The position numbers and the translations under genes are program-made. Of a stretch of DNA of 64,000 nt, positions 43,164 to 57,560 are shown piece after piece (position 1 is the stretch's first letter; the number at the start of each line of letters is the position of its first letter). The stretch is from Dictyostelium discoideum (lineage: Eukaryota), in contig CM000150.2 in NCBI GenBank assembly GCA_000004695.1, positions 480,001 through 544,000 of the forward strand. Direction: 5' to 3'. The notes beneath the pieces are model-generated. The model saw nothing but the letters and a program-made list of their open reading frames with translations, did no database searches and was not told the DNA's origin.

Positions 43164-43493
43164 ATGAATAAGATTTCATTTGAAATGGTTGATTTAAGAG
43201 AATCATACGACTATGAATTATTGAAAAGGTTTTATAATGAATTAATGATTCCAAATTTTCCAGATGAAAATGAATTAGAACCTTTAGAAAGTTGGGTTGA
43301 AATGTTTGGAAATTTAAATGAAAATAATAATAATAATAATAATAACAATTTAAACTTTTTTAACAATGACAATAACCAAGAAACTATTAATATAAATTTT
43401 GAAAATAATTTATTTTTTGGATCAAATGGTGCTGATGGTGCTGATATAATTGAATATCAAGAAGAAGAAGAACAACAACAACAACAAAAACAA

Positions 43494-43526
<33 letters not shown>

Positions 43527-45381
43527 CTCGATAAAAAAAATAATGAAGATGATGAAGAAAATATTGAATTTCATATAGTTTTATCAATTTGTTCAGAAAA
43601 AGATAGAATTGAAGGACAATCTAATATATTGGGTGGTATTGTATTTGAATATTATCCATCAATAAATTGTGGTTGTATAACTTATATATTGGTTAATGAT
43701 AATTATCGTGGACTTGGGATAGCGAGTAAATTATTAAAAGAATCAAATAATAGATTCAACGATATCGCTAATCGATTTGGACATCTTTCTGGATGTAATG
43801 CAATATTCTTAGAGACAAATTCCGCAGAGAGGGTCAAACCAGAGAATGACGTAATGGATCCATCTAAACGTCATTCAATATTCCATAAAATGGGTATCAG
43901 GTTACTAGATTTCGATTACATTCAACCACCATTATCAAATGATAGTAATAAATGTAAAGATTTATTATTACTATGTTTATTAACTCAAAATATACCAAAA
44001 CAACAAAAATTGAAAATAAATAATAATAATAATAATAATAATAATTCAATTGATAGATATTATTATTTACCAAGTTTATTATTGGAGAGTTTTATTAAAG
44101 TGTTTTGGAAATCATGTTATTCTAGAATCACCCCTAAAATCAATTGGAAAAAAGATGTTGATTATCAAAGAATGGTAGATCAATTAAAGAGAAGAGAAAT
44201 AATACCGTTATTAGATTTACCTTGGAATAGACCTTGGACATTGGTTGACTTAAGAGATAGTTTCAATTCAAATAGATCATTAATCACTAAATTTTATAAT
44301 CAAATTTTAGTACCAAATTTTAAAGGTCATCATGAATTAGAATCACTTGAATCTTGGTTTAAAATGTTACCATTAATAGATAATAATAGCAATACCAATA
44401 ATAGCAATTCTAATGCTAATAATTATAATAATGATTTCTTTCATTTATTAGTTGCATTAAGATATCTAAATGATGATATTGATCATAATCAAGAACCAAT
44501 CATTTGTGGTGGTATTGCATTTGAATATCATCCAAAATCAAATTGTGCATTAATTACTTACTTTTTAATTGGTGGTGGTGAAAATAATCGTTCTGAAATG
44601 ATGGCAAAAGCATTACTTCAAAGATCACTTGAAATCATTGAACAAAATGCAATCGATTGTGGTAATTTAGCTGGTTGTAATGCAATATTTATTGAAAATA
44701 ATAAAAATAATCATAATAATCAAAATAATCAAAATAATAATAATAATACAAAAGAATATTTAAATCAAGATGAAATCATTGAAATATCATATAATTCAGA
44801 ATTTTTAGAGAAATTAGGTTTTATGAAATTAGATTTTAATTATGTTCAACCACCATTATCATTTGAAAAAAGTTCAAGTAATTCTTTAAATTTATTAGTT
44901 TTATTAACTTCGAGAATACCACAAACTATTGATTTAAATTTAATTGAAAATGAAAATGAAAATAATAATATTAATATTAATAATAATAATTATTTACCAA
45001 ATTCATTAATTATTAAATTTATTCAAACATTTTGGGAAAATACAATTAAAAGAAATGAAATTATAAATTTAAATTTATATGAAAATGATTTAAATTTTAA
45101 TATTATGATGGATAGTTTAAAAAGGAAATCTAAAATCCAATTATTAAAATCATCATTAAATTCAAGTTGGGATAATAATTTCACATTAATTGATTTAGCA
45201 GTTGATTTCCATCAAGATTTATTCGACCAATTTTATAATTCATTACCATTTAATAATGAAAATCAAAATCAAAATAATAATAATTATTTAAATATTGAAC
45301 CTAAATCAATATTACAAAAATCCTTATTAAAGAAATCAAATTTTCAAGAAGATATTCATATTTTATTATTAGTTTCATATG

Positions 45382-45450
<69 letters not shown>

Positions 45451-46205
45451 TTTGCCCAACTATATATGGTTCAATTATTTTCTCATATTTTCCAATAAGT
45501 AATTGTGGTTTAATTTCAAATATTTTCATTAAAAGACCACCACCAAGTGAAAATATTAATAATAATAATGAGCATTTTACAAGTTTATATGGTTATTCAA
45601 TTAAAAATAAAAATTATGATATTGGTATTGAATTATTAAATGATTCTATTGGTATTATAAATAGAATATCAACTTCAAAAACTCATATATCCGGTCCGAA
45701 TGCTATATTTTTAGAATGTTCAACAATTACAAATAACTATAGTAGTAGTAATAATAGTAATAATAGTAATAATGATGATAATAGTATAGTTAATAATATA
45801 AAGAAATTTAATGAAAATGAAAATGAAGGTAATTTCATTCAAATTCCATTTAGTAATGAAATTAAAAATCAAGGTTGGTTAATATTAGATTTAAAATATT
45901 ATCAACCACCTAGAAACTCATTAAAATATATTCAAAGTAATGAAAATTTGGAAATATTAGAACAACCACCTTCATTATTATGCGTTTTAAATTGTTTACA
46001 ATTTCCTCACGATATTTCATTACCATCACCATCATTATATATCCCAAAAGATTTATTTAAAAAATTCTTAGCTTCATATTGGACTTCAATTTTCTCAAGA
46101 AATCAAATTTCAATTCAACAATATTCAACAAATAAAAAAAATAATACAAATATTAAATTAAATCAACAATTTAATGAAAAAGATAAAATTTTATTATTAA
46201 ATTAA
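43164..46205 (+). CDS. Protein of 1013 aa built from three tandem GNAT-like (N-acetyltransferase fold) modules
   Basis: Three collinear repeats of about 300 aa share (I/L)xGG(I)xFEY(Y/H)Pxx(N)C(G/A)xITY...(R)GLG(I)A(S)KLL...(S/A)GCNAIFLE...(K/L)(L)DFxY(V/I)QPPLS, at aa 150-260, 440-560 and 720-900. The R-x-x-G-x-G/A motif (YRGLGIASKLL) is the GNAT acetyl-CoA motif A. Confidence 0.55.
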
Positions 46206-53107: not shown

Positions 53108-56100
53108 ATGGCGGAAAGAGTAAAAATTTTAAAACCTGGATTAACAAATAGAAGTAGGTCAGCATCTATTGATATGATAGTTATGGATGAAATTGCAAAA
53201 AATAATCCAATTTATACAAATGATAATAGTAATAATAATAATAATGATGAAACATCATCAAATATTTCAGGATCAAATAGTATTCAAAATTTATCATTAA
53301 ATAATTTAAATAATTTAAGTGGTGGTGGTGGTGGTAGTAATAGTAATAGTGTAAATAATACAATATCAGAAAGAAATCCAGATTCACCAAGATTTAGAAG
53401 TAATACAGGTAATTTACAAACGATGATGATGGTTAGTAATGGTAATATAATTGGATCAATACAATCACCATCACCACCAATATCACCACGTGCACAAATG
53501 ACAGCACCAAATCTTTCAAAATTTTTAGATCAACATACACCACCACCATCACCAAAACCCGAGCATCTAAGTGGTCATTTAAGAATTCAACAACAACATC
53601 ATAGCGGTATATATAGAAATTTAAGTTTTAGTAGTGTAAATTCAAGTACATCATTTGGTGATTTTAAAAGGTCAACAAATTTATTTCAACCACCACAATC
53701 ACAATCTCAACAACAACAACAATTACAATTACAACAACAACAACAACAATCAATGCCAAATTTAAGTTTAGGTAATAATATTAATAGTAATAATAATAAT
53801 AATAATGGTTCAGAAAATAATGATATTTCAATGGAAATTAAAGATAATACAAGTGGTATTGATACAAGTGTTAAAAGTTTTTCACCAAGAAAGAAAAGGA
53901 AGAAAGAGAATAAAATTATTAGAAGAATTAGAAGATGGATGACATGGGTGATTAGTTCAAATATTTGGTTAACAATAATGATAATATCAATTATATTTGT
54001 ATTATTTATTGATGATATTATTGGTGCATCGGGATCACCATCGTCCAATGCGATTGATTATAGTATAATGGCAGTGAAATGCAGCATAATTGGATTCTTT
54101 TCAATTGATATCATATTGAATTTATTTTGTTTTCAACAAGAGTATTTCCCAGGCACAATAGTGTTTTGGCTAGATTTAATTAGTTTAATATCCATAGTCA
54201 CCGATATCCACCATTTTCAAAACTACTATGCAAATTTAGTATTGTCAATAACTGTAAATACAAGAATCATTAGAATATGTGGTTCTTTCATAAGGATATC
54301 ACTGATATCGACATTGTATAATAGATTCCTAAGAAAGCAAACATTACCATCTGAAGGATTAGAAGTTGAAGCAAGTAAATTAGGTGATAAATTAATAAGG
54401 TTGACAACTAATAAAATCGTTTTATTAGCATTGGCCGTCTTATTTGCAACTCAATTATTAGTATATGAATCTGATACACCAACACAATATATTCAATCAA
54501 CAATCTCGTCATTTGAATATTTATCATCAACTTATGGTTTACAATCACCTGAATTCACTGGTGTTTTTAATAATTATCAATTAAATAATGAAAAATTATT
54601 ATTCACACAAATTTCAAATCAAAAAATTTTTAATTTACCTGATAAAATTAATTCACTTCAAGAAAGATCAATTTTAAAATATAATTATTTAAATTCAATA
54701 ATTTGGATTGATAATTCTGTAAGTTTTTTTTTAAAAAAAAATATAATTTAATTTTATAGATTTATTAATTAATTAATTTTTAATTTTTTTTTTTTTTAGT
54801 ATTATATAAAATATTCATGTATTTTACATTTATGTTTAACAGTTTTTGTAATATTAGTTTTAATTACAATTAATTTATTAATTGTAAATGATGCACATTG
54901 GTTAGTAATTAATCCATTAGAGAATGTATTAACAATTGTAAAATTATTATCAAAACAAAATTCAATGATAAAACAAGGTGGTGGTGGTAGTGGTATAGTT
55001 GGTGGATTTTCAAATAATACAATTAATTCAAATTCAAATTTAAATTCAAATTCAAATTTAAATTCAAATTCAAATTCAAATTTAGTTAGGAATAGAGTTG
55101 AATCAATTGGTAATAAATCAGATACTGCTGATACAACTAGTAGTAGTGGTATTGATAATGAGGAACCTGATGAAGCAGACTTTTTATTAGGAATGTTAAA
55201 TGAAATTGATGATTCATTACAAGCTGCAAAAGAAAAAGTTGAAGAAGAGTCAATTCAAAATTCAATACTTAAAAAAGATATTGAAGATCTTTATGTTGAG
55301 AAATATATATTACAAGTTCATCTAAGATCAATTGTTAGAAAAATTAATTTTCATGATCCTATTGGACATTATTTAAAAAATAGACAACTTTTACTAATGC
55401 AATCAAATGCAACTTTTAATACATTGGAACAAGATAGCGAAGATGATATTAGATTTAAATTGAATGATGACGGCTTACCAGACTTAAATGTAATTCAATA
55501 TGCAACCATTGACAAATTAATTGAGAAATTGACAATGGCAGAAGCACATGACTTGAAATTTGCAAATGTATTTTTATTAACCTATCGTAAATTCCTATCA
55601 CCAGTGGAGTTGATGGAGCGTTTGACAATAAGGTTTTGTGTCACACCTACTATGGAATTGCCAGAAAAGTTGTTGGCTTCCAAAGAACAGGTTGAGCAAT
55701 GGAGAAAGACAAAACAGGAGCAAATCCGTACAAGTGTATTCAATACTATTAAACTCTGGATTGGTATTTATAATTGGGATTTCTATGAAAATCCAGACCT
55801 TTATGAATTGTTTAATAACCTAGTTAATAAAATCATGCCATTTTGTAAAATGGAGAAACACGCTACCTACATTGACTCTATACACAAGAGAAAGATGGCT
55901 ACCTATATCCAAGATCCACCTTATATACCAATTGAACCATTAACTCAGGAGGAAATAGCAGAAACAATGGTATTGGAGGATAGGCTATTATTCAATTTCG
56001 ATATATCCGATATTGCAATTCAAATCACTTTAATGGAGTTTGATTTATTTAAAAATATAAAATCAAAAGAATTTTTAAACCTTGCATGGACTCATAAAAC

Positions 56101-56707
56101 CGAGAAAACTAGGCTCTCTCCAAATATCGTCAGATTCATTGAACATTTCAATAGTGTTAGTTTTTGGCTACAAACTTGTATTGTTAAAAGCGGGAAAATT
56201 AAAGAACGTGTCGCTGTACTTAAAAAAGTGATTGCATTAGCTGACGTTTTCGTACAACTAAATAACTACTATGGTGCAATGGAAGTCCTCTCATCTTTAG
56301 AATCCTCTGCCGTGTCTAGATTACATAAAACTTGGGAACAAGTGCCACAATCCTCTATCCAGTCTTTACAATCCTTACAAAAACTATTATCACCACAAGA
56401 GAATTTTAAAAATTATCGTGAAAGAATTTCAAAATGTGGTTCTTGTTGTATACCATATATTGGTTTATATCTAAGTGATTTAACATTCATTCATGAAGGT
56501 AATCCAGACTATTATCAACAATCACAATTAATTAATTTCTCAAAACTTCGTGAAGTTGCCATTACAATTAATACAATTAAACAATTTCAAAATATTTTTT
56601 ATTATTATGAAAAAAATCAAAATATTCGTTCTCAAATGAATTTTAAATCACCAGGTGCTGATATAATTTGGAAAATGTCATTAAGTTGTGAACAAAGAAA
56701 TAAATAA
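53108..56707 (+). CDS. RasGEF (REM + CDC25 domains) fused to an N-terminal 6-TM voltage-gated-cation-channel-like module, join(53108..54718,54800..56707), about 1172 aa
   Basis: C-terminal half has RasGEF-N (VIQYATIDKLIEKLT...FLLTYRKFLSPVELMERL) and a CDC25 catalytic domain (IAIQITLMEFDLFKNIKSKEFL...VLKKVIALADVFVQLNNYYGAMEVLSSLESSAVSRL...YIGLYLSDLTFIHEGNPD). N-terminal half has helices resembling S1-S6: an S3-like IVFWLDLISLISIV, an S4-like segment with basic residues every third position (NTRIIRICGSFIRISLISTLYNRFLRK), and an S6-like ...ILVLITINLLIVND. One 81-nt GTAAGT...TTTAG intron keeps frame. Confidence 0.7.
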
Positions 56708-57289: not shown

Positions 57290-57560
57290 ACCAGGAGTAT
57301 TACCAAATGATATGAAAGTTAATGTGGATAAAGATAAATTAATAATTCAAGGTAAAAGAGAATGTGAAAAACATGATTATCTTTTTAGTAATAGATGGTG
57401 TGGTAGCTTTATACATCATATTAGTTTTGCTAAAGAAGTTAAAGCTTCAGATGTAAATGTGGGTTTAGGTGAAGGAATATTAAAAATTACAATCTCAAAC
57501 ACTCCAACAAATAATGTAATTGGTGTTAAAATGTCAAATAATAATAAAGTTGAATTTTAA
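57016..57560 (+). CDS. Small heat-shock protein (HSP20/alpha-crystallin domain), join(57016..57139,57286..57560), 132 aa
   Basis: Exon 2 encodes DLPGVLPNDMKVNVDKDKLIIQGKRE...RWCGSFIHHISFAKEVKASDVNVGLGEGILKITI, a typical alpha-crystallin domain. One GTATGT...TTAAG intron. Confidence 0.7.

What the first reader, a model, noticed from the sequence alone, without database searches (positions are those of the whole stretch)
53108..56707. RasGEF fused to a voltage-gated-cation-channel-like 6-TM module
The first ~560 aa contain six predicted helices with hallmarks of the voltage-sensor/pore fold. There is an S3-like WLDLISLISIV, an S4-like helix with R/K every third residue (TRIIRICGSFIRISLISTLYNRFLRK), and an S6-like ...VILVLITINLLIVND. 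This is directly followed in the same ORF (one small in-frame intron) by RasGEF-N and CDC25 domains. A membrane-embedded channel or voltage-sensor module physically coupled to a Ras exchange factor is an unusual architecture. It suggests Ras activation gated by membrane potential or ion flux.
Basis: partly seen in the sequence, partly recalled or inferred. Interest (0 to 1): 0.7.

Follow-up and report, generated by a model that had tools for sequence, protein, structure and literature searches.

The report
Voltage-sensor-domain RasGEF, not a channel
This Dictyostelium gene encodes one membrane protein that joins a voltage-sensor-type helix bundle and a small outside-facing sensor-like domain (but no ion pore) to a Ras activator, so it is a candidate direct link from membrane voltage or an outside cue to Ras rather than a channel.

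Summary
The gene model holds: exon 1 53108-54718, an 81-nt GT..AG intron, exon 2 54800-56707, 1172 aa. RasGEF_N and RasGEF domains are clear, and there are six TM helices at aa ~283-567. It is probably D. discoideum gefW, the one RasGEF reported to have a TM domain and sit at the plasma membrane.

The "pore" reading fails. The TM5-TM6 loop folds confidently as an alpha/beta ectodomain resembling bacterial PDC/Cache sensor domains. TM6 runs on as a long, highly conserved cytoplasmic helix.

S4 is depleted: 3 of 9 periodic basic positions are kept, against 5-9 in relatives. The charge-transfer centre is intact.

The same six-TM module is joined to RhoGEF, class III cyclase (apparently the alveolate AC-alpha "channel/enzyme" family) and phosphodiesterase domains across eukaryotes.

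Most likely this is a non-channel, sensor-regulated RasGEF. Voltage control is plausible but untested. I found no literature describing a VSD-GEF.

The parts
53108..54718 (+). Exon 1 (aa 1-537): N-terminal low-complexity region, S1-S4, TM5 and the ectodomain
   Evidence: The ATG sits in an A-rich context and the frame is open to the GTAAGT donor at 54719.
54719..54799 (+). Intron, 81 nt, GTAAGT...TTTAG, about 95% A+T, with in-frame stops
   Evidence: The spliced product is colinear with the D. purpureum orthologue P0001 across the junction.
54800..56707 (+). Exon 2 (aa 538-1172 plus stop): TM6, cytoplasmic helix, linker, coiled region, RasGEF_N and RasGEF
   Evidence: The frame is open from the AG acceptor. 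TM6 is encoded upstream of the first ATG of this exon (54965), which argues against a separate downstream gene.
53108..53890 (+). aa 1-261: N/Q/S/G-rich low-complexity cytoplasmic region containing one conserved Pro/Ser-rich motif (aa ~120-154)
   Evidence: Identity to D. purpureum is 47%.
53891..54337 (+). aa 262-410: basic juxtamembrane helix (S0) plus voltage-sensor domain S1 (283-306), S2 (314-341), S3 (347-368) and S4 (374-410). Key residues are D303, F331, D334, D356, D366, R386, R389 and R396.
   Evidence: - phmmer against 1.84e9 proteins gave 71 hits, 43 of them with Ion_trans S1-S4 only.
- The family profile matches Hv1 at E 7.5e-8.
- Residue table.
54362..54472 (+). aa 419-455: S4-S5 linker-like amphipathic helix plus TM5 (EVEASKLGDKLIRLTTNKIVLLALAVLFATQLLVYES)
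   Evidence: The family motif xSxxGxKLxxxTTxKV is conserved. Identity to D. purpureum is 92%. The model shows a helix at positions 169-195.
54473..54718 (+). aa 456-537 (the fold ends at about aa 540, in exon 2): extracellular alpha/beta domain between TM5 and TM6, with a PDC/Cache-like fold
   Evidence: - AF2 gives pLDDT 91.4 for the D. discoideum sequence alone with an 18-row alignment, and >90 in the full-module model.
54809..54964 (+). aa 541-592: TM6 continuing without a break into a conserved cytoplasmic helix (LVINPLENVLTIVKLLSKQ)
   Evidence: - The model shows one helix at positions 282-347.
- Pro and Glu are invariant or nearly invariant across the family.
- Identity to D. purpureum is 94%, the highest in the protein.
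- This region is needed for the precomputed Pfam PF26726 'Helical_RasGEFs' match in relatives.
54965..55168 (+). aa 593-660: G/N/S-rich low-complexity linker
   Evidence: Length and sequence vary among family members.
55169..55468 (+). aa 661-760: second conserved helix (DEADFLLGMLNEIDDSL) followed by a charged helical, coiled-coil-like stretch leading to RasGEF_N
   Evidence: The motif E(T/A)xxLLxxL is shared by RasGEF, RhoGEF and cyclase members. The coiled-coil character is inferred from sequence only.
55493..55819 (+). RasGEF_N (REM) domain, aa 769-877
   Evidence: Pfam PF00618, E 2.2e-21, 76.5 bits.
56009..56551 (+). RasGEF (CDC25-homology) catalytic domain, aa 941-1121
   Evidence: Pfam PF00617, E 3.7e-64, full-length match to profile positions 1-181 of 181.

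Best explanation
The locus encodes one 1172-aa polytopic plasma-membrane RasGEF, most probably D. discoideum RasGEFW.

Its membrane part is not an ion channel. It is a composite sensor module with three elements:
1. A four-helix voltage-sensor domain (S1-S4). The charge-transfer centre is intact (F331, D334, D356), but S4 keeps only three arginines (R386, R389, R396).
2. An S4-S5-type linker, then TM5, then an ~85-aa extracellular PDC/Cache-like domain, then TM6.
3. A cytoplasmic helix that continues TM6, carries a conserved P-x-E motif and leads to a second conserved helix. This is the region covered in relatives by the precomputed Pfam family 'Helical_RasGEFs'.

The REM and CDC25 catalytic domains follow.

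Proposed mechanism (inferred, not shown): movement of S4 with membrane potential, and/or a change in the ectodomain on binding an extracellular ligand, is passed through the S4-S5 linker, TM5 and TM6 to the rigid cytoplasmic helix. That helix then changes the activity, oligomeric state or membrane orientation of the GEF towards lipid-anchored Ras. This parallels how Ci-VSP couples a voltage sensor to a phosphatase, and how two-TM bacterial sensors couple a periplasmic domain to a cytoplasmic output.

Shown here: the gene structure, the domains, the VSD homology and fold, the absence of a pore, the ectodomain fold class, the conservation pattern, and reuse of the same module with other signalling enzymes.

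Inferred: voltage or ligand dependence, and the direction of regulation.
For: Gene model.

Catalytic domains.

VSD:
- An exhaustive phmmer search gave 71 hits.
- 43 of the 71 match Ion_trans, and in every match inspected only profile positions ~2-122 of 241.
- The family profile against PDB sequences hits Hv1 at 7.5e-8, then Nav and Kv sensors, all within S1-S4.
- The AF2 model has pLDDT 84.5 and pTM 0.74.
- S1 Asp, S2 Phe-x-x-acid and S3 Asp are conserved in every aligned row except one S1 Asn (Lithocolla), including this protein.

No pore:
- The ectodomain model has pLDDT 91.4.

Transduction core:
- S4-S5/TM5 is 92% and TM6 plus helix is 94% identical to D. purpureum, against 81% for the catalytic domain and 53% for the ectodomain.

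Module reuse:
- The module is found with RasGEF, RhoGEF (DH-PH), Guanylate_cyc, PDEase and EF-hand+RasGEF.
- Species include D. purpureum, Cavenderia, Heterostelium, Ceratiomyxa, Lithocolla, Thecamonas, Pigoraptor and Platysulcus.
- Transcriptome-derived contigs carry the module and the enzyme on one ORF.

Localisation: RasGEFW is reported as the one D. discoideum RasGEF noted to have a TM domain, and it sits at the plasma membrane (PMC11696275). It is expressed throughout growth and development (PMC1273635).
Against: - S4 in the dictyostelid RasGEF clade has lost 5-6 of the 9 periodic basic residues (VRRSRLTNL). The three that remain are spaced R-x-x-R-x6-R, so voltage sensitivity may be weak or lost.
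- There is no direct Pfam Ion_trans hit to the protein itself. The VSD assignment rests on transitive homology and a predicted structure of the 74%-identical D. purpureum module.
- No functional data exist for voltage or ligand dependence.
- In the published screen, overexpressed RasGEFW fell in a cluster with few shared characteristics.
- Identity with gefW is inferred by elimination, not by sequence match.
Confidence: 0.6

Rival explanations
1. One reading: a genuine 6-TM voltage-gated cation channel (sensor plus pore) fused to a RasGEF, so that ion flux or gating drives Ras activation.
For: - The protein has a six-TM topology with a VSD.
- The related alveolate adenylyl cyclases were described as ion channel/enzyme fusions, and a K+ conductance was reported for the purified Paramecium enzyme (cited in PMC10651576; PMC3283738; PMC12414865).
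Against: - In every homologue match inspected, Ion_trans stops at about profile position 120 of 241.
- The family profile finds no pore domain in the PDB.
- The TM5-TM6 loop is a confidently folded alpha/beta ectodomain with sensor-domain neighbours, and there is no re-entrant helix or filter motif.
- The GXG motif invoked for the cyclases lies after TM6, in the cytoplasm, and is absent from this protein.
- The review itself says the channel function of that family is unproven.
Confidence: 0.05
2. A receptor-type RasGEF. The extracellular PDC/Cache-like domain binds a ligand and signals through TM6. The VSD is a voltage-insensitive structural scaffold or lipid-interacting bundle inherited from charged ancestors.
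For: - The ectodomain fold class matches ligand-binding sensor domains.
- The TM-ectodomain-TM-long-helix layout is like two-TM bacterial sensors.
- S4 is charge-depleted specifically in this clade.
- The ectodomain evolves faster than the rest (53% identity), as ligand-binding surfaces often do.
Against: - The S4 sequence is almost identical across dictyostelid orthologues, and the charge-transfer centre is fully conserved. That is unexpected for a relic.
- Hv1 works with three S4 arginines (established knowledge).
- No ligand pocket or ligand has been identified.
- The Cache assignment is only fold-level, and the domain is smaller than typical sCache domains.
Confidence: 0.25
3. A passive membrane anchor. 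The six-TM region only tethers a constitutively active or otherwise regulated GEF at the plasma membrane next to Ras.
For: - Plasma-membrane localisation is reported for RasGEFW.
- S4 is degenerate.
- The long low-complexity N-terminus and linker could carry the real regulation, for example by phosphorylation.
Against: - TM5 and TM6 plus helix are the most conserved parts of the protein, more so than the catalytic domain.
- The whole module, including the post-TM6 helices, is conserved across eukaryotic supergroups and is coupled to four different enzyme classes. A simple anchor would not need a VSD plus a folded ectodomain.
Confidence: 0.08
4. Two separate genes: a ~547-aa membrane protein ending at the stop inside the putative intron, and a 580-aa cytosolic RasGEF starting at ATG 54965.
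For: Both unspliced ORFs exist mechanically. No transcript data are available here.
Against: - The splice signals are canonical and the intron is 81 nt and extremely AT-rich.
- 165 nt of open, highly conserved coding sequence (TM6 plus helix, 94% identical to D. purpureum) lie between the acceptor and ATG 54965.
- Orthologues and distant relatives, including transcriptome assemblies (Ceratiomyxa, Lithocolla), carry the module and the RasGEF in one ORF.
Confidence: 0.02

Closest known systems
D. discoideum RasGEFW (gefW)
   Same: It is a D. discoideum-type RasGEF with REM and CDC25 domains and predicted TM segments. RasGEFW is reported as the one RasGEF of the 25 noted to have a TM domain, it localises to the plasma membrane (PMC11696275), and it is expressed throughout development (PMC1273635). 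This locus is most probably that gene.
   Different: Identity was inferred by elimination, because no sequence or accession could be matched with these tools. The papers describe only 'a transmembrane domain'. They do not describe a voltage-sensor domain, an ectodomain, or kinship with the cyclase fusions.
Voltage-sensing phosphatase (Ci-VSP / VSP family)
   Different: - The enzyme is a RasGEF, not a PTEN-like phosphatase.
- Two extra TM helices and a folded ectodomain sit between S4 and the enzyme, so coupling cannot be through a short S4-enzyme linker.
- S4 has three Arg with irregular spacing.
- Sequence identity is about 14%.
Alveolate adenylyl cyclase alpha (Paramecium/Tetrahymena/Plasmodium 'ion channel/enzyme fusion'; Weber et al. 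2004, Schultz et al. 1992, as cited)
   Same: The whole six-TM module (S1-S4, linker/TM5, ectodomain, TM6, P-x-E helix, second helix) is homologous to the module of cyclase-bearing hits. For example, P0053 matches TM5-TM6 at iE 3e-13 (alignments). Those hits carry the post-TM6 G-F-G-E-A-G motif, which fits the 'GXG after TMD6' described for AC-alpha.
   Different: - The output domain is REM-CDC25, not a class III cyclase.
- There is no GXG motif.
- S4 is charge-poor (3 against 9 basic positions).
- That the cyclase hits are the published AC-alpha family is inferred from motif and taxonomy (for example Symbiodinium 'cya'). It was not shown by direct comparison with PfAC-alpha.
Hv1 / TMEM266 (VSD-only proteins)
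   Same: Hv1 is the best sequence-profile match in the PDB (E 7.5e-8). Like the dictyostelid protein, it has three S4 arginines.
   Different: - In the HMM alignment, the Hv1 S1 selectivity Asp aligns with a hydrophobic residue (F297) here (tentative).
- This protein has extra TM5, ectodomain and TM6, plus a large enzyme.
Bacterial two-TM sensors with periplasmic PDC/Cache domains (histidine kinases, chemoreceptors, LapD)
   Different: - There is no detectable sequence similarity.
- The domain is smaller (~85 aa, 4 strands).
- No HAMP domain is detectable.
- The unit is preceded by a VSD.
- The protein is eukaryotic.

Membership tests
RasGEF (CDC25-homology exchange factors) | CDC25-homology catalytic domain (Pfam RasGEF PF00617) above the curated cut-off | tested here: met
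   216.4 bits against a 23.1 cut-off, E 3.7e-64, profile positions 1-181 of 181, aa 941-1121.
RasGEF (CDC25-homology exchange factors) | REM / RasGEF_N domain upstream of the catalytic domain | tested here: met
   PF00618, 76.5 bits against a 28.3 cut-off, aa 769-877.
RasGEF (CDC25-homology exchange factors) | Nucleotide-exchange activity on a Ras/Rap GTPase | not testable with these tools
   This needs a biochemical assay. The substrate GTPase is unknown.
Voltage-gated cation channel superfamily (6TM, Pfam Ion_trans PF00520) | Direct match of the protein to the Ion_trans profile | tested here: not met
   No hit at E<=10 for the full protein or for the isolated TM module.
Voltage-gated cation channel superfamily (6TM, Pfam Ion_trans PF00520) | S1-S4 voltage-sensor domain | tested here: met
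   - 43 of 71 homologues hit Ion_trans, at profile positions ~2-122 in all those inspected.
- The family profile matches Hv1, Nav and Kv sensors.
Voltage-gated cation channel superfamily (6TM, Pfam Ion_trans PF00520) | Pore domain: S5, re-entrant P-loop with selectivity filter, S6 | tested here: not met
   - No Ion_trans or PDB match extends beyond S4.
- The loop is an alpha/beta ectodomain with pLDDT >90 and sensor-domain neighbours.
- Structural alignments to channels cover only ~130-200 residues.
Functional voltage-sensor domain (as in VSP, Hv1, Kv) | Charge-transfer centre: S2 aromatic plus acidic residue three positions later, and S3 Asp | tested here: met
   F331, D334 and D356 are present, and these positions are conserved in all 29 alignment rows that cover them. 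They are aligned to Hv1 F150/E153/D174-type positions.
Functional voltage-sensor domain (as in VSP, Hv1, Kv) | S4 with a run of basic residues at every third position | tested here: inconclusive
   Only R386, R389 and R396 occupy periodic positions (3 of 9, with one 7-residue gap). Relatives have 5-9. Three is the number in Hv1, but the spacing differs.
Functional voltage-sensor domain (as in VSP, Hv1, Kv) | Measured gating charge movement or voltage-dependent output | not testable with these tools
   This requires electrophysiology or voltage-clamp fluorometry.
Alveolate AC-alpha-type 'channel/enzyme' module family (precomputed Pfam PF00520 + PF26726 Helical_RasGEFs) | Homologous six-TM module including TM5, ectodomain, TM6 and the post-TM6 helices | tested here: met
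   phmmer matches run across query positions 1-330 to cyclase, RhoGEF and RasGEF members. A profile search gave 371 hits carrying PF00520, PF26726 and PF00211.
Alveolate AC-alpha-type 'channel/enzyme' module family (precomputed Pfam PF00520 + PF26726 Helical_RasGEFs) | Direct PF26726 match of this protein | not testable with these tools
   PF26726 is absent from the local Pfam copy. Its name and its dependence on the post-TM6 region were inferred.
Alveolate AC-alpha-type 'channel/enzyme' module family (precomputed Pfam PF00520 + PF26726 Helical_RasGEFs) | Class III cyclase catalytic domain and GXG motif after TM6 | tested here: not met
   There is no Guanylate_cyc hit. The position of GFGEAG is occupied by ...SLQAAKEKVEE.
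PDC/Cache extracellular sensor domains | Extracytoplasmic location between two TM helices, with the PDC-type alpha/beta fold | tested here: inconclusive
PDC/Cache extracellular sensor domains | Sequence-profile membership (Pfam Cache/dCache/CHASE etc.) | tested here: not met
   There are no such Pfam hits and no PDB sequence hits with the ectodomain profile.
HAMP domain | Pfam HAMP match, or a profile match to HAMP-containing structures, directly after the last TM helix | tested here: not met
   The P-x-E helix and the second helix looked HAMP-like by eye. No HAMP hit appeared in 10 family members at E<=10, or with the region profile against the PDB.

The most novel reading that the evidence does not exclude
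The protein is a bona fide voltage-regulated (or dual voltage- and ligand-regulated) Ras exchange factor. S4 movement in the plasma membrane would then directly set Ras-GTP levels, giving Dictyostelium a one-protein path from membrane potential or electric field to the excitable Ras network. This protein would also be the founding characterised member of an ancient, pan-eukaryotic class of 'VSD + Cache-like ectodomain' modules that drive GEFs, cyclases and phosphodiesterases. On that reading, the apicomplexan and ciliate AC-alpha 'K+ channel' domain is likewise a sensor rather than a pore.
Probability: 0.3. Interest if true: 0.85.

Novelty: new variant of a known kind. Interest (0 to 1): 0.62.

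Why it matters
Enzymes driven by a voltage sensor are rare. The textbook cases are the voltage-sensing phosphatase, SLC9C1 and the poorly characterised alveolate cyclases. A 2024 review of voltage sensors mentions no exchange factor or cyclase at all.

A VSD hard-wired to a RasGEF would be a direct electrical input into small-GTPase signalling. In Dictyostelium, Ras is the core of the excitable network that steers migration. RasG is needed for directionality in electrotaxis (PMC6679393). As far as I know, the sensor of the electric field has not been identified. A plasma-membrane VSD-RasGEF is therefore a concrete candidate that can be knocked out.

The analysis also changes how the related apicomplexan and ciliate cyclase 'channel' domain should be viewed: as a sensor plus ectodomain, not a K+ pore. 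It shows that the same module has been combined with RasGEF, RhoGEF, cyclase and PDE outputs across eukaryotes.

If S4 in this clade proves inert, the protein is still an unusual receptor-like GEF with a Cache-like ectodomain.

Tried and rejected
1. Direct Pfam and PDB sequence searches with the D. discoideum module found nothing. The word-indexed search with the spliced module found nothing either, not even close orthologues. The exhaustive phmmer search was needed.
I therefore modelled the 74%-identical D. purpureum module for the full six TM helices, and the D. discoideum sequence itself only for the ectodomain, which lies wholly in exon 1.
3. Pore-domain reading: rejected (see membership test).
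4. HAMP domain after TM6: the motifs LVIxP(I/L)Exx...NPL and ETxxLLxxL looked HAMP-like, but there is no Pfam HAMP hit and no PDB profile hit. Dropped.
5. Hv1-like proton pathway: in the HMM alignment the Hv1 S1 Asp aligns to a hydrophobic residue. Not pursued, and tentative.
7. The afdb50 library was unavailable, so the UniProt name of the D. discoideum protein could not be retrieved.
8. The papers' supplements (for primers or accessions for gefW) are not held.
9. Literature searches combining a voltage-sensor term with RasGEF, or a voltage-sensing-domain term with Dictyostelium and guanine nucleotide exchange, found nothing relevant.


Full report
**Gene structure**

The region is extremely AT-rich with N/Q-rich coding sequence, which is typical of Dictyostelium. 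An ATG at 53108 opens a frame that runs to a GTAAGT at 54719. An 81-nt, almost pure A+T segment with in-frame stops ends in TTTAG at 54799. The frame then continues from 54800 to the stop at 56705-56707. Splicing gives a 1172-aa protein.

The junction (...IWIDNS|YYIKYSCILHLCLT...) is colinear with the D. purpureum orthologue. The 165 nt between the acceptor and the first ATG of exon 2 (54965) encode TM6 and a helix that is 94% identical to D. purpureum. A two-gene reading is therefore very unlikely. Transcriptome-derived relatives from Ceratiomyxa and Lithocolla carry the membrane module and the RasGEF in one ORF.

**Catalytic part**

Pfam gives RasGEF_N at aa 769-877 (E 2e-21) and a full-length RasGEF domain at aa 941-1121 (E 4e-64). 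This part of the finding is simply correct.

**Membrane part: is it Ion_trans-like?**

Hydropathy and the later model give six helices between aa ~283 and 567, after ~260 aa of low-complexity sequence. The protein itself does not hit Ion_trans even at E<=10, nor any PDB sequence. A word-indexed search also found nothing.

An exhaustive phmmer scan of 1.84 billion representatives, using the exon-1 part of the module, found 71 proteins at E<=1e-3. Of these, 43 match Pfam Ion_trans, 9 carry RasGEF, 3 RhoGEF (DH-PH), 6 a class III cyclase domain and 1 a phosphodiesterase. In every case inspected, the Ion_trans match covers only profile positions ~2-122 of 241, which is the S1-S4 voltage-sensor half.

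A profile built from 31 family members hits Hv1 (E 7.5e-8), an Hv1 chimera, and Nav and Kv sensors in the PDB, again only over S1-S4.

**Structure**

The remote tools refuse the spliced sequence. I therefore modelled the D. purpureum module, which is 74% identical, with the family alignment. The model has pLDDT 84.5 and pTM 0.74. It shows:
- an S0 helix;
- four long helices (S1-S4);
- a linker helix running into TM5;
- a compact alpha-alpha-beta-beta-alpha-beta-beta domain with pLDDT >90;
- one uninterrupted 66-residue helix comprising TM6 and ~35 cytoplasmic residues.

There is no re-entrant loop.

The topology places the ectodomain outside and the GEF in the cytoplasm. The supporting points are a basic cytoplasmic S0, an even number of helices, and a cytoplasmic enzyme.

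**State of the voltage sensor**

Across the 31-row alignment, the S2 Phe, the S2 acidic residue three positions later, the S3 Asp and a second S3 acidic residue are conserved in every row that covers them, including this protein (F331, D334, D356, D366). The S1 Asp (D303) is conserved in all but one row. The charge-transfer centre is therefore intact.

S4 is different. Relatives carry 5-9 basic residues at the nine periodic positions; in the cyclase members the sequence is RAGRASRAGTRAGRLVRIVRLIRLIR. The dictyostelid RasGEF clade reads VRRSRLTNL at those positions and keeps only R386, R389 and R396.

The depleted S4 is nevertheless nearly identical among dictyostelid orthologues. The VSD-RhoGEF paralogues of the same species keep a canonical S4.

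**Conservation pattern**

| Region | Identity to D. purpureum |
|---|---|
| N-terminus | 47% |
| S0-S4 | 76% |
| S4-S5 linker + TM5 | 92% |
| Ectodomain | 53% |
| TM6 + helix | 94% |
| Low-complexity linker | 53% |
| RasGEF_N | 80% |
| RasGEF | 81% |

The helices that would carry a signal from sensor to enzyme are the most constrained part of the protein.

After TM6, two motifs are shared by RasGEF, RhoGEF and cyclase members. The first is a Pro/Glu motif (LVIxP(I/L)Exx). The second is a helix, after a variable acidic linker, reading E(T/A)xxLLxxL. Precomputed annotations on relatives list a newer Pfam family, PF26726 'Helical_RasGEFs'. Members truncated within TM6 lack it and those extending past TM6 have it, so it corresponds to this post-TM6 helical region. 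I suspected a HAMP domain, but neither Pfam nor a PDB profile search supports that.

**Relatives and what is known**

Orthologous VSD-RasGEFs occur in:
- D. purpureum, Cavenderia and Heterostelium;
- an unnamed EukProt entry, P0002 (54% identical);
- Ceratiomyxa (Amoebozoa);
- Lithocolla, which to my knowledge is a nucleariid-type holomycotan;
- Thecamonas, to my knowledge an apusomonad;
- metagenomic eukaryotes, one with EF-hands inserted.

The cyclase-bearing members carry G-F-G-E-A-G after TM6. [quoted passage not shown] One hit is annotated 'cya' in Symbiodinium. I infer that this is the same family (Weber et al. 2004; Schultz et al. 1992, as cited in those papers). If so, its 'pore' was inferred from sequence and is not supported by the fold seen here.

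For D. discoideum, RasGEFW is reported as the RasGEF with a TM domain, and it is at the plasma membrane (PMC11696275). It is expressed throughout development (PMC1273635). This locus is most probably gefW, but I could not match an accession.

Searches combining a voltage-sensor term with RasGEF, or a voltage-sensing-domain term with Dictyostelium and guanine nucleotide exchange, found nothing relevant. A 2024 review of voltage sensors mentions neither GEFs nor cyclases.

**Interpretation**

Established:
- one gene;
- a RasGEF;
- a true VSD;
- no pore;
- a folded ectodomain between TM5 and TM6;
- a rigid, conserved TM6-borne helix;
- a module reused with several signalling enzymes across eukaryotes.

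Inferred: the module regulates the GEF, by voltage (S4) and/or by an extracellular cue (ectodomain), through the linker/TM5/TM6 helix.

I put about 0.6 on this sensor-regulated, non-channel reading overall. Within it, I put roughly 0.3 on genuine voltage control in the D. discoideum protein, given its thin S4. The rivals are:

| Rival | Confidence |
|---|---|
| Ligand receptor with a vestigial VSD | 0.25 |
| Passive membrane anchor | 0.08 |
| True channel | 0.05 |
| Two separate genes | 0.02 |

**Verdict**

This is a new variant of the voltage-sensor-coupled enzyme theme in a known, scarcely characterised gene. It is directly testable in a genetically tractable organism, and it bears on how membrane potential or electric fields reach Ras. 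Interest 0.62.

Noticed in passing
Related proteins P0004 (Acytostelium subglobosum XP_012748630), P0006 (D. purpureum XP_003292884), P0009 (Logan contig): Dictyostelids also have a paralogous protein in which the same six-TM module is fused to a RhoGEF (DH-PH) domain. These paralogues keep a canonical S4 with 6-8 basic positions. D. discoideum presumably has one too, elsewhere in its genome.
   Followed up: partly
window 53465-53569 (aa ~120-154 of the protein): Inside the otherwise poorly conserved low-complexity N-terminus, the Pro/Ser-rich stretch SPSPPISPRAQMTAPNLSKFLDQHTPPPSPKPEHL is well conserved in D. purpureum and in P0002. It looks like a cluster of proline-directed phosphorylation sites or a docking motif.
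   Followed up: no
P0005 (Heterostelium album XP_020430518), residues ~355-375: The annotated orthologue jumps from the end of S3 straight into the ectodomain and lacks S4, the linker and TM5. Its RasGEF domain is also truncated. This is most likely a gene-model error in that genome rather than a real loss.
   Followed up: no
P0039/P0072/P0073 (ENA metagenome contigs) and P0027: Further architectures of the same module occur. One is VSD module + EF-hand pair + RasGEF in an uncultured eukaryote. Another has a 3',5'-cyclic-nucleotide phosphodiesterase fragment N-terminal to the module.
   Followed up: partly
P0054 (Thecamonas trahens XP_013755822, annotated 'Ras guanine nucleotide exchange factor A'): This distant VSD-RasGEF also has a partly degenerate S4 (RRCP-RKKH at the periodic positions). 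Charge loss in S4 may therefore have happened more than once in the GEF-linked members.
   Followed up: no
Pfam PF26726 'Helical_RasGEFs' (seen): A Pfam family newer than the local Pfam copy covers the post-TM6 helical region of this module and is named after RasGEFs. It is precomputed on many cyclase-type relatives. I could not run it on the window protein.
   Followed up: partly
window 57312-57560 (+): A short ORF (82 aa; ...GKRECEKHDYLFSNRWCGSFIHHISFAKEVKASDVNVGLGEGILKITISN...) just downstream looks, from memory, like the C-terminal part of an alpha-crystallin-type small heat-shock protein, possibly the second exon of a gene. Not checked.
   Followed up: no
window 43164-46205 (+): A 1013-aa ORF appears to contain three internal repeats of ~330 aa, each with an acetyltransferase-like core (…GGI(V/A)FEY(Y/H)P…CG/CALITY(I/F)L(V/I)…). 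Not analysed.
   Followed up: no
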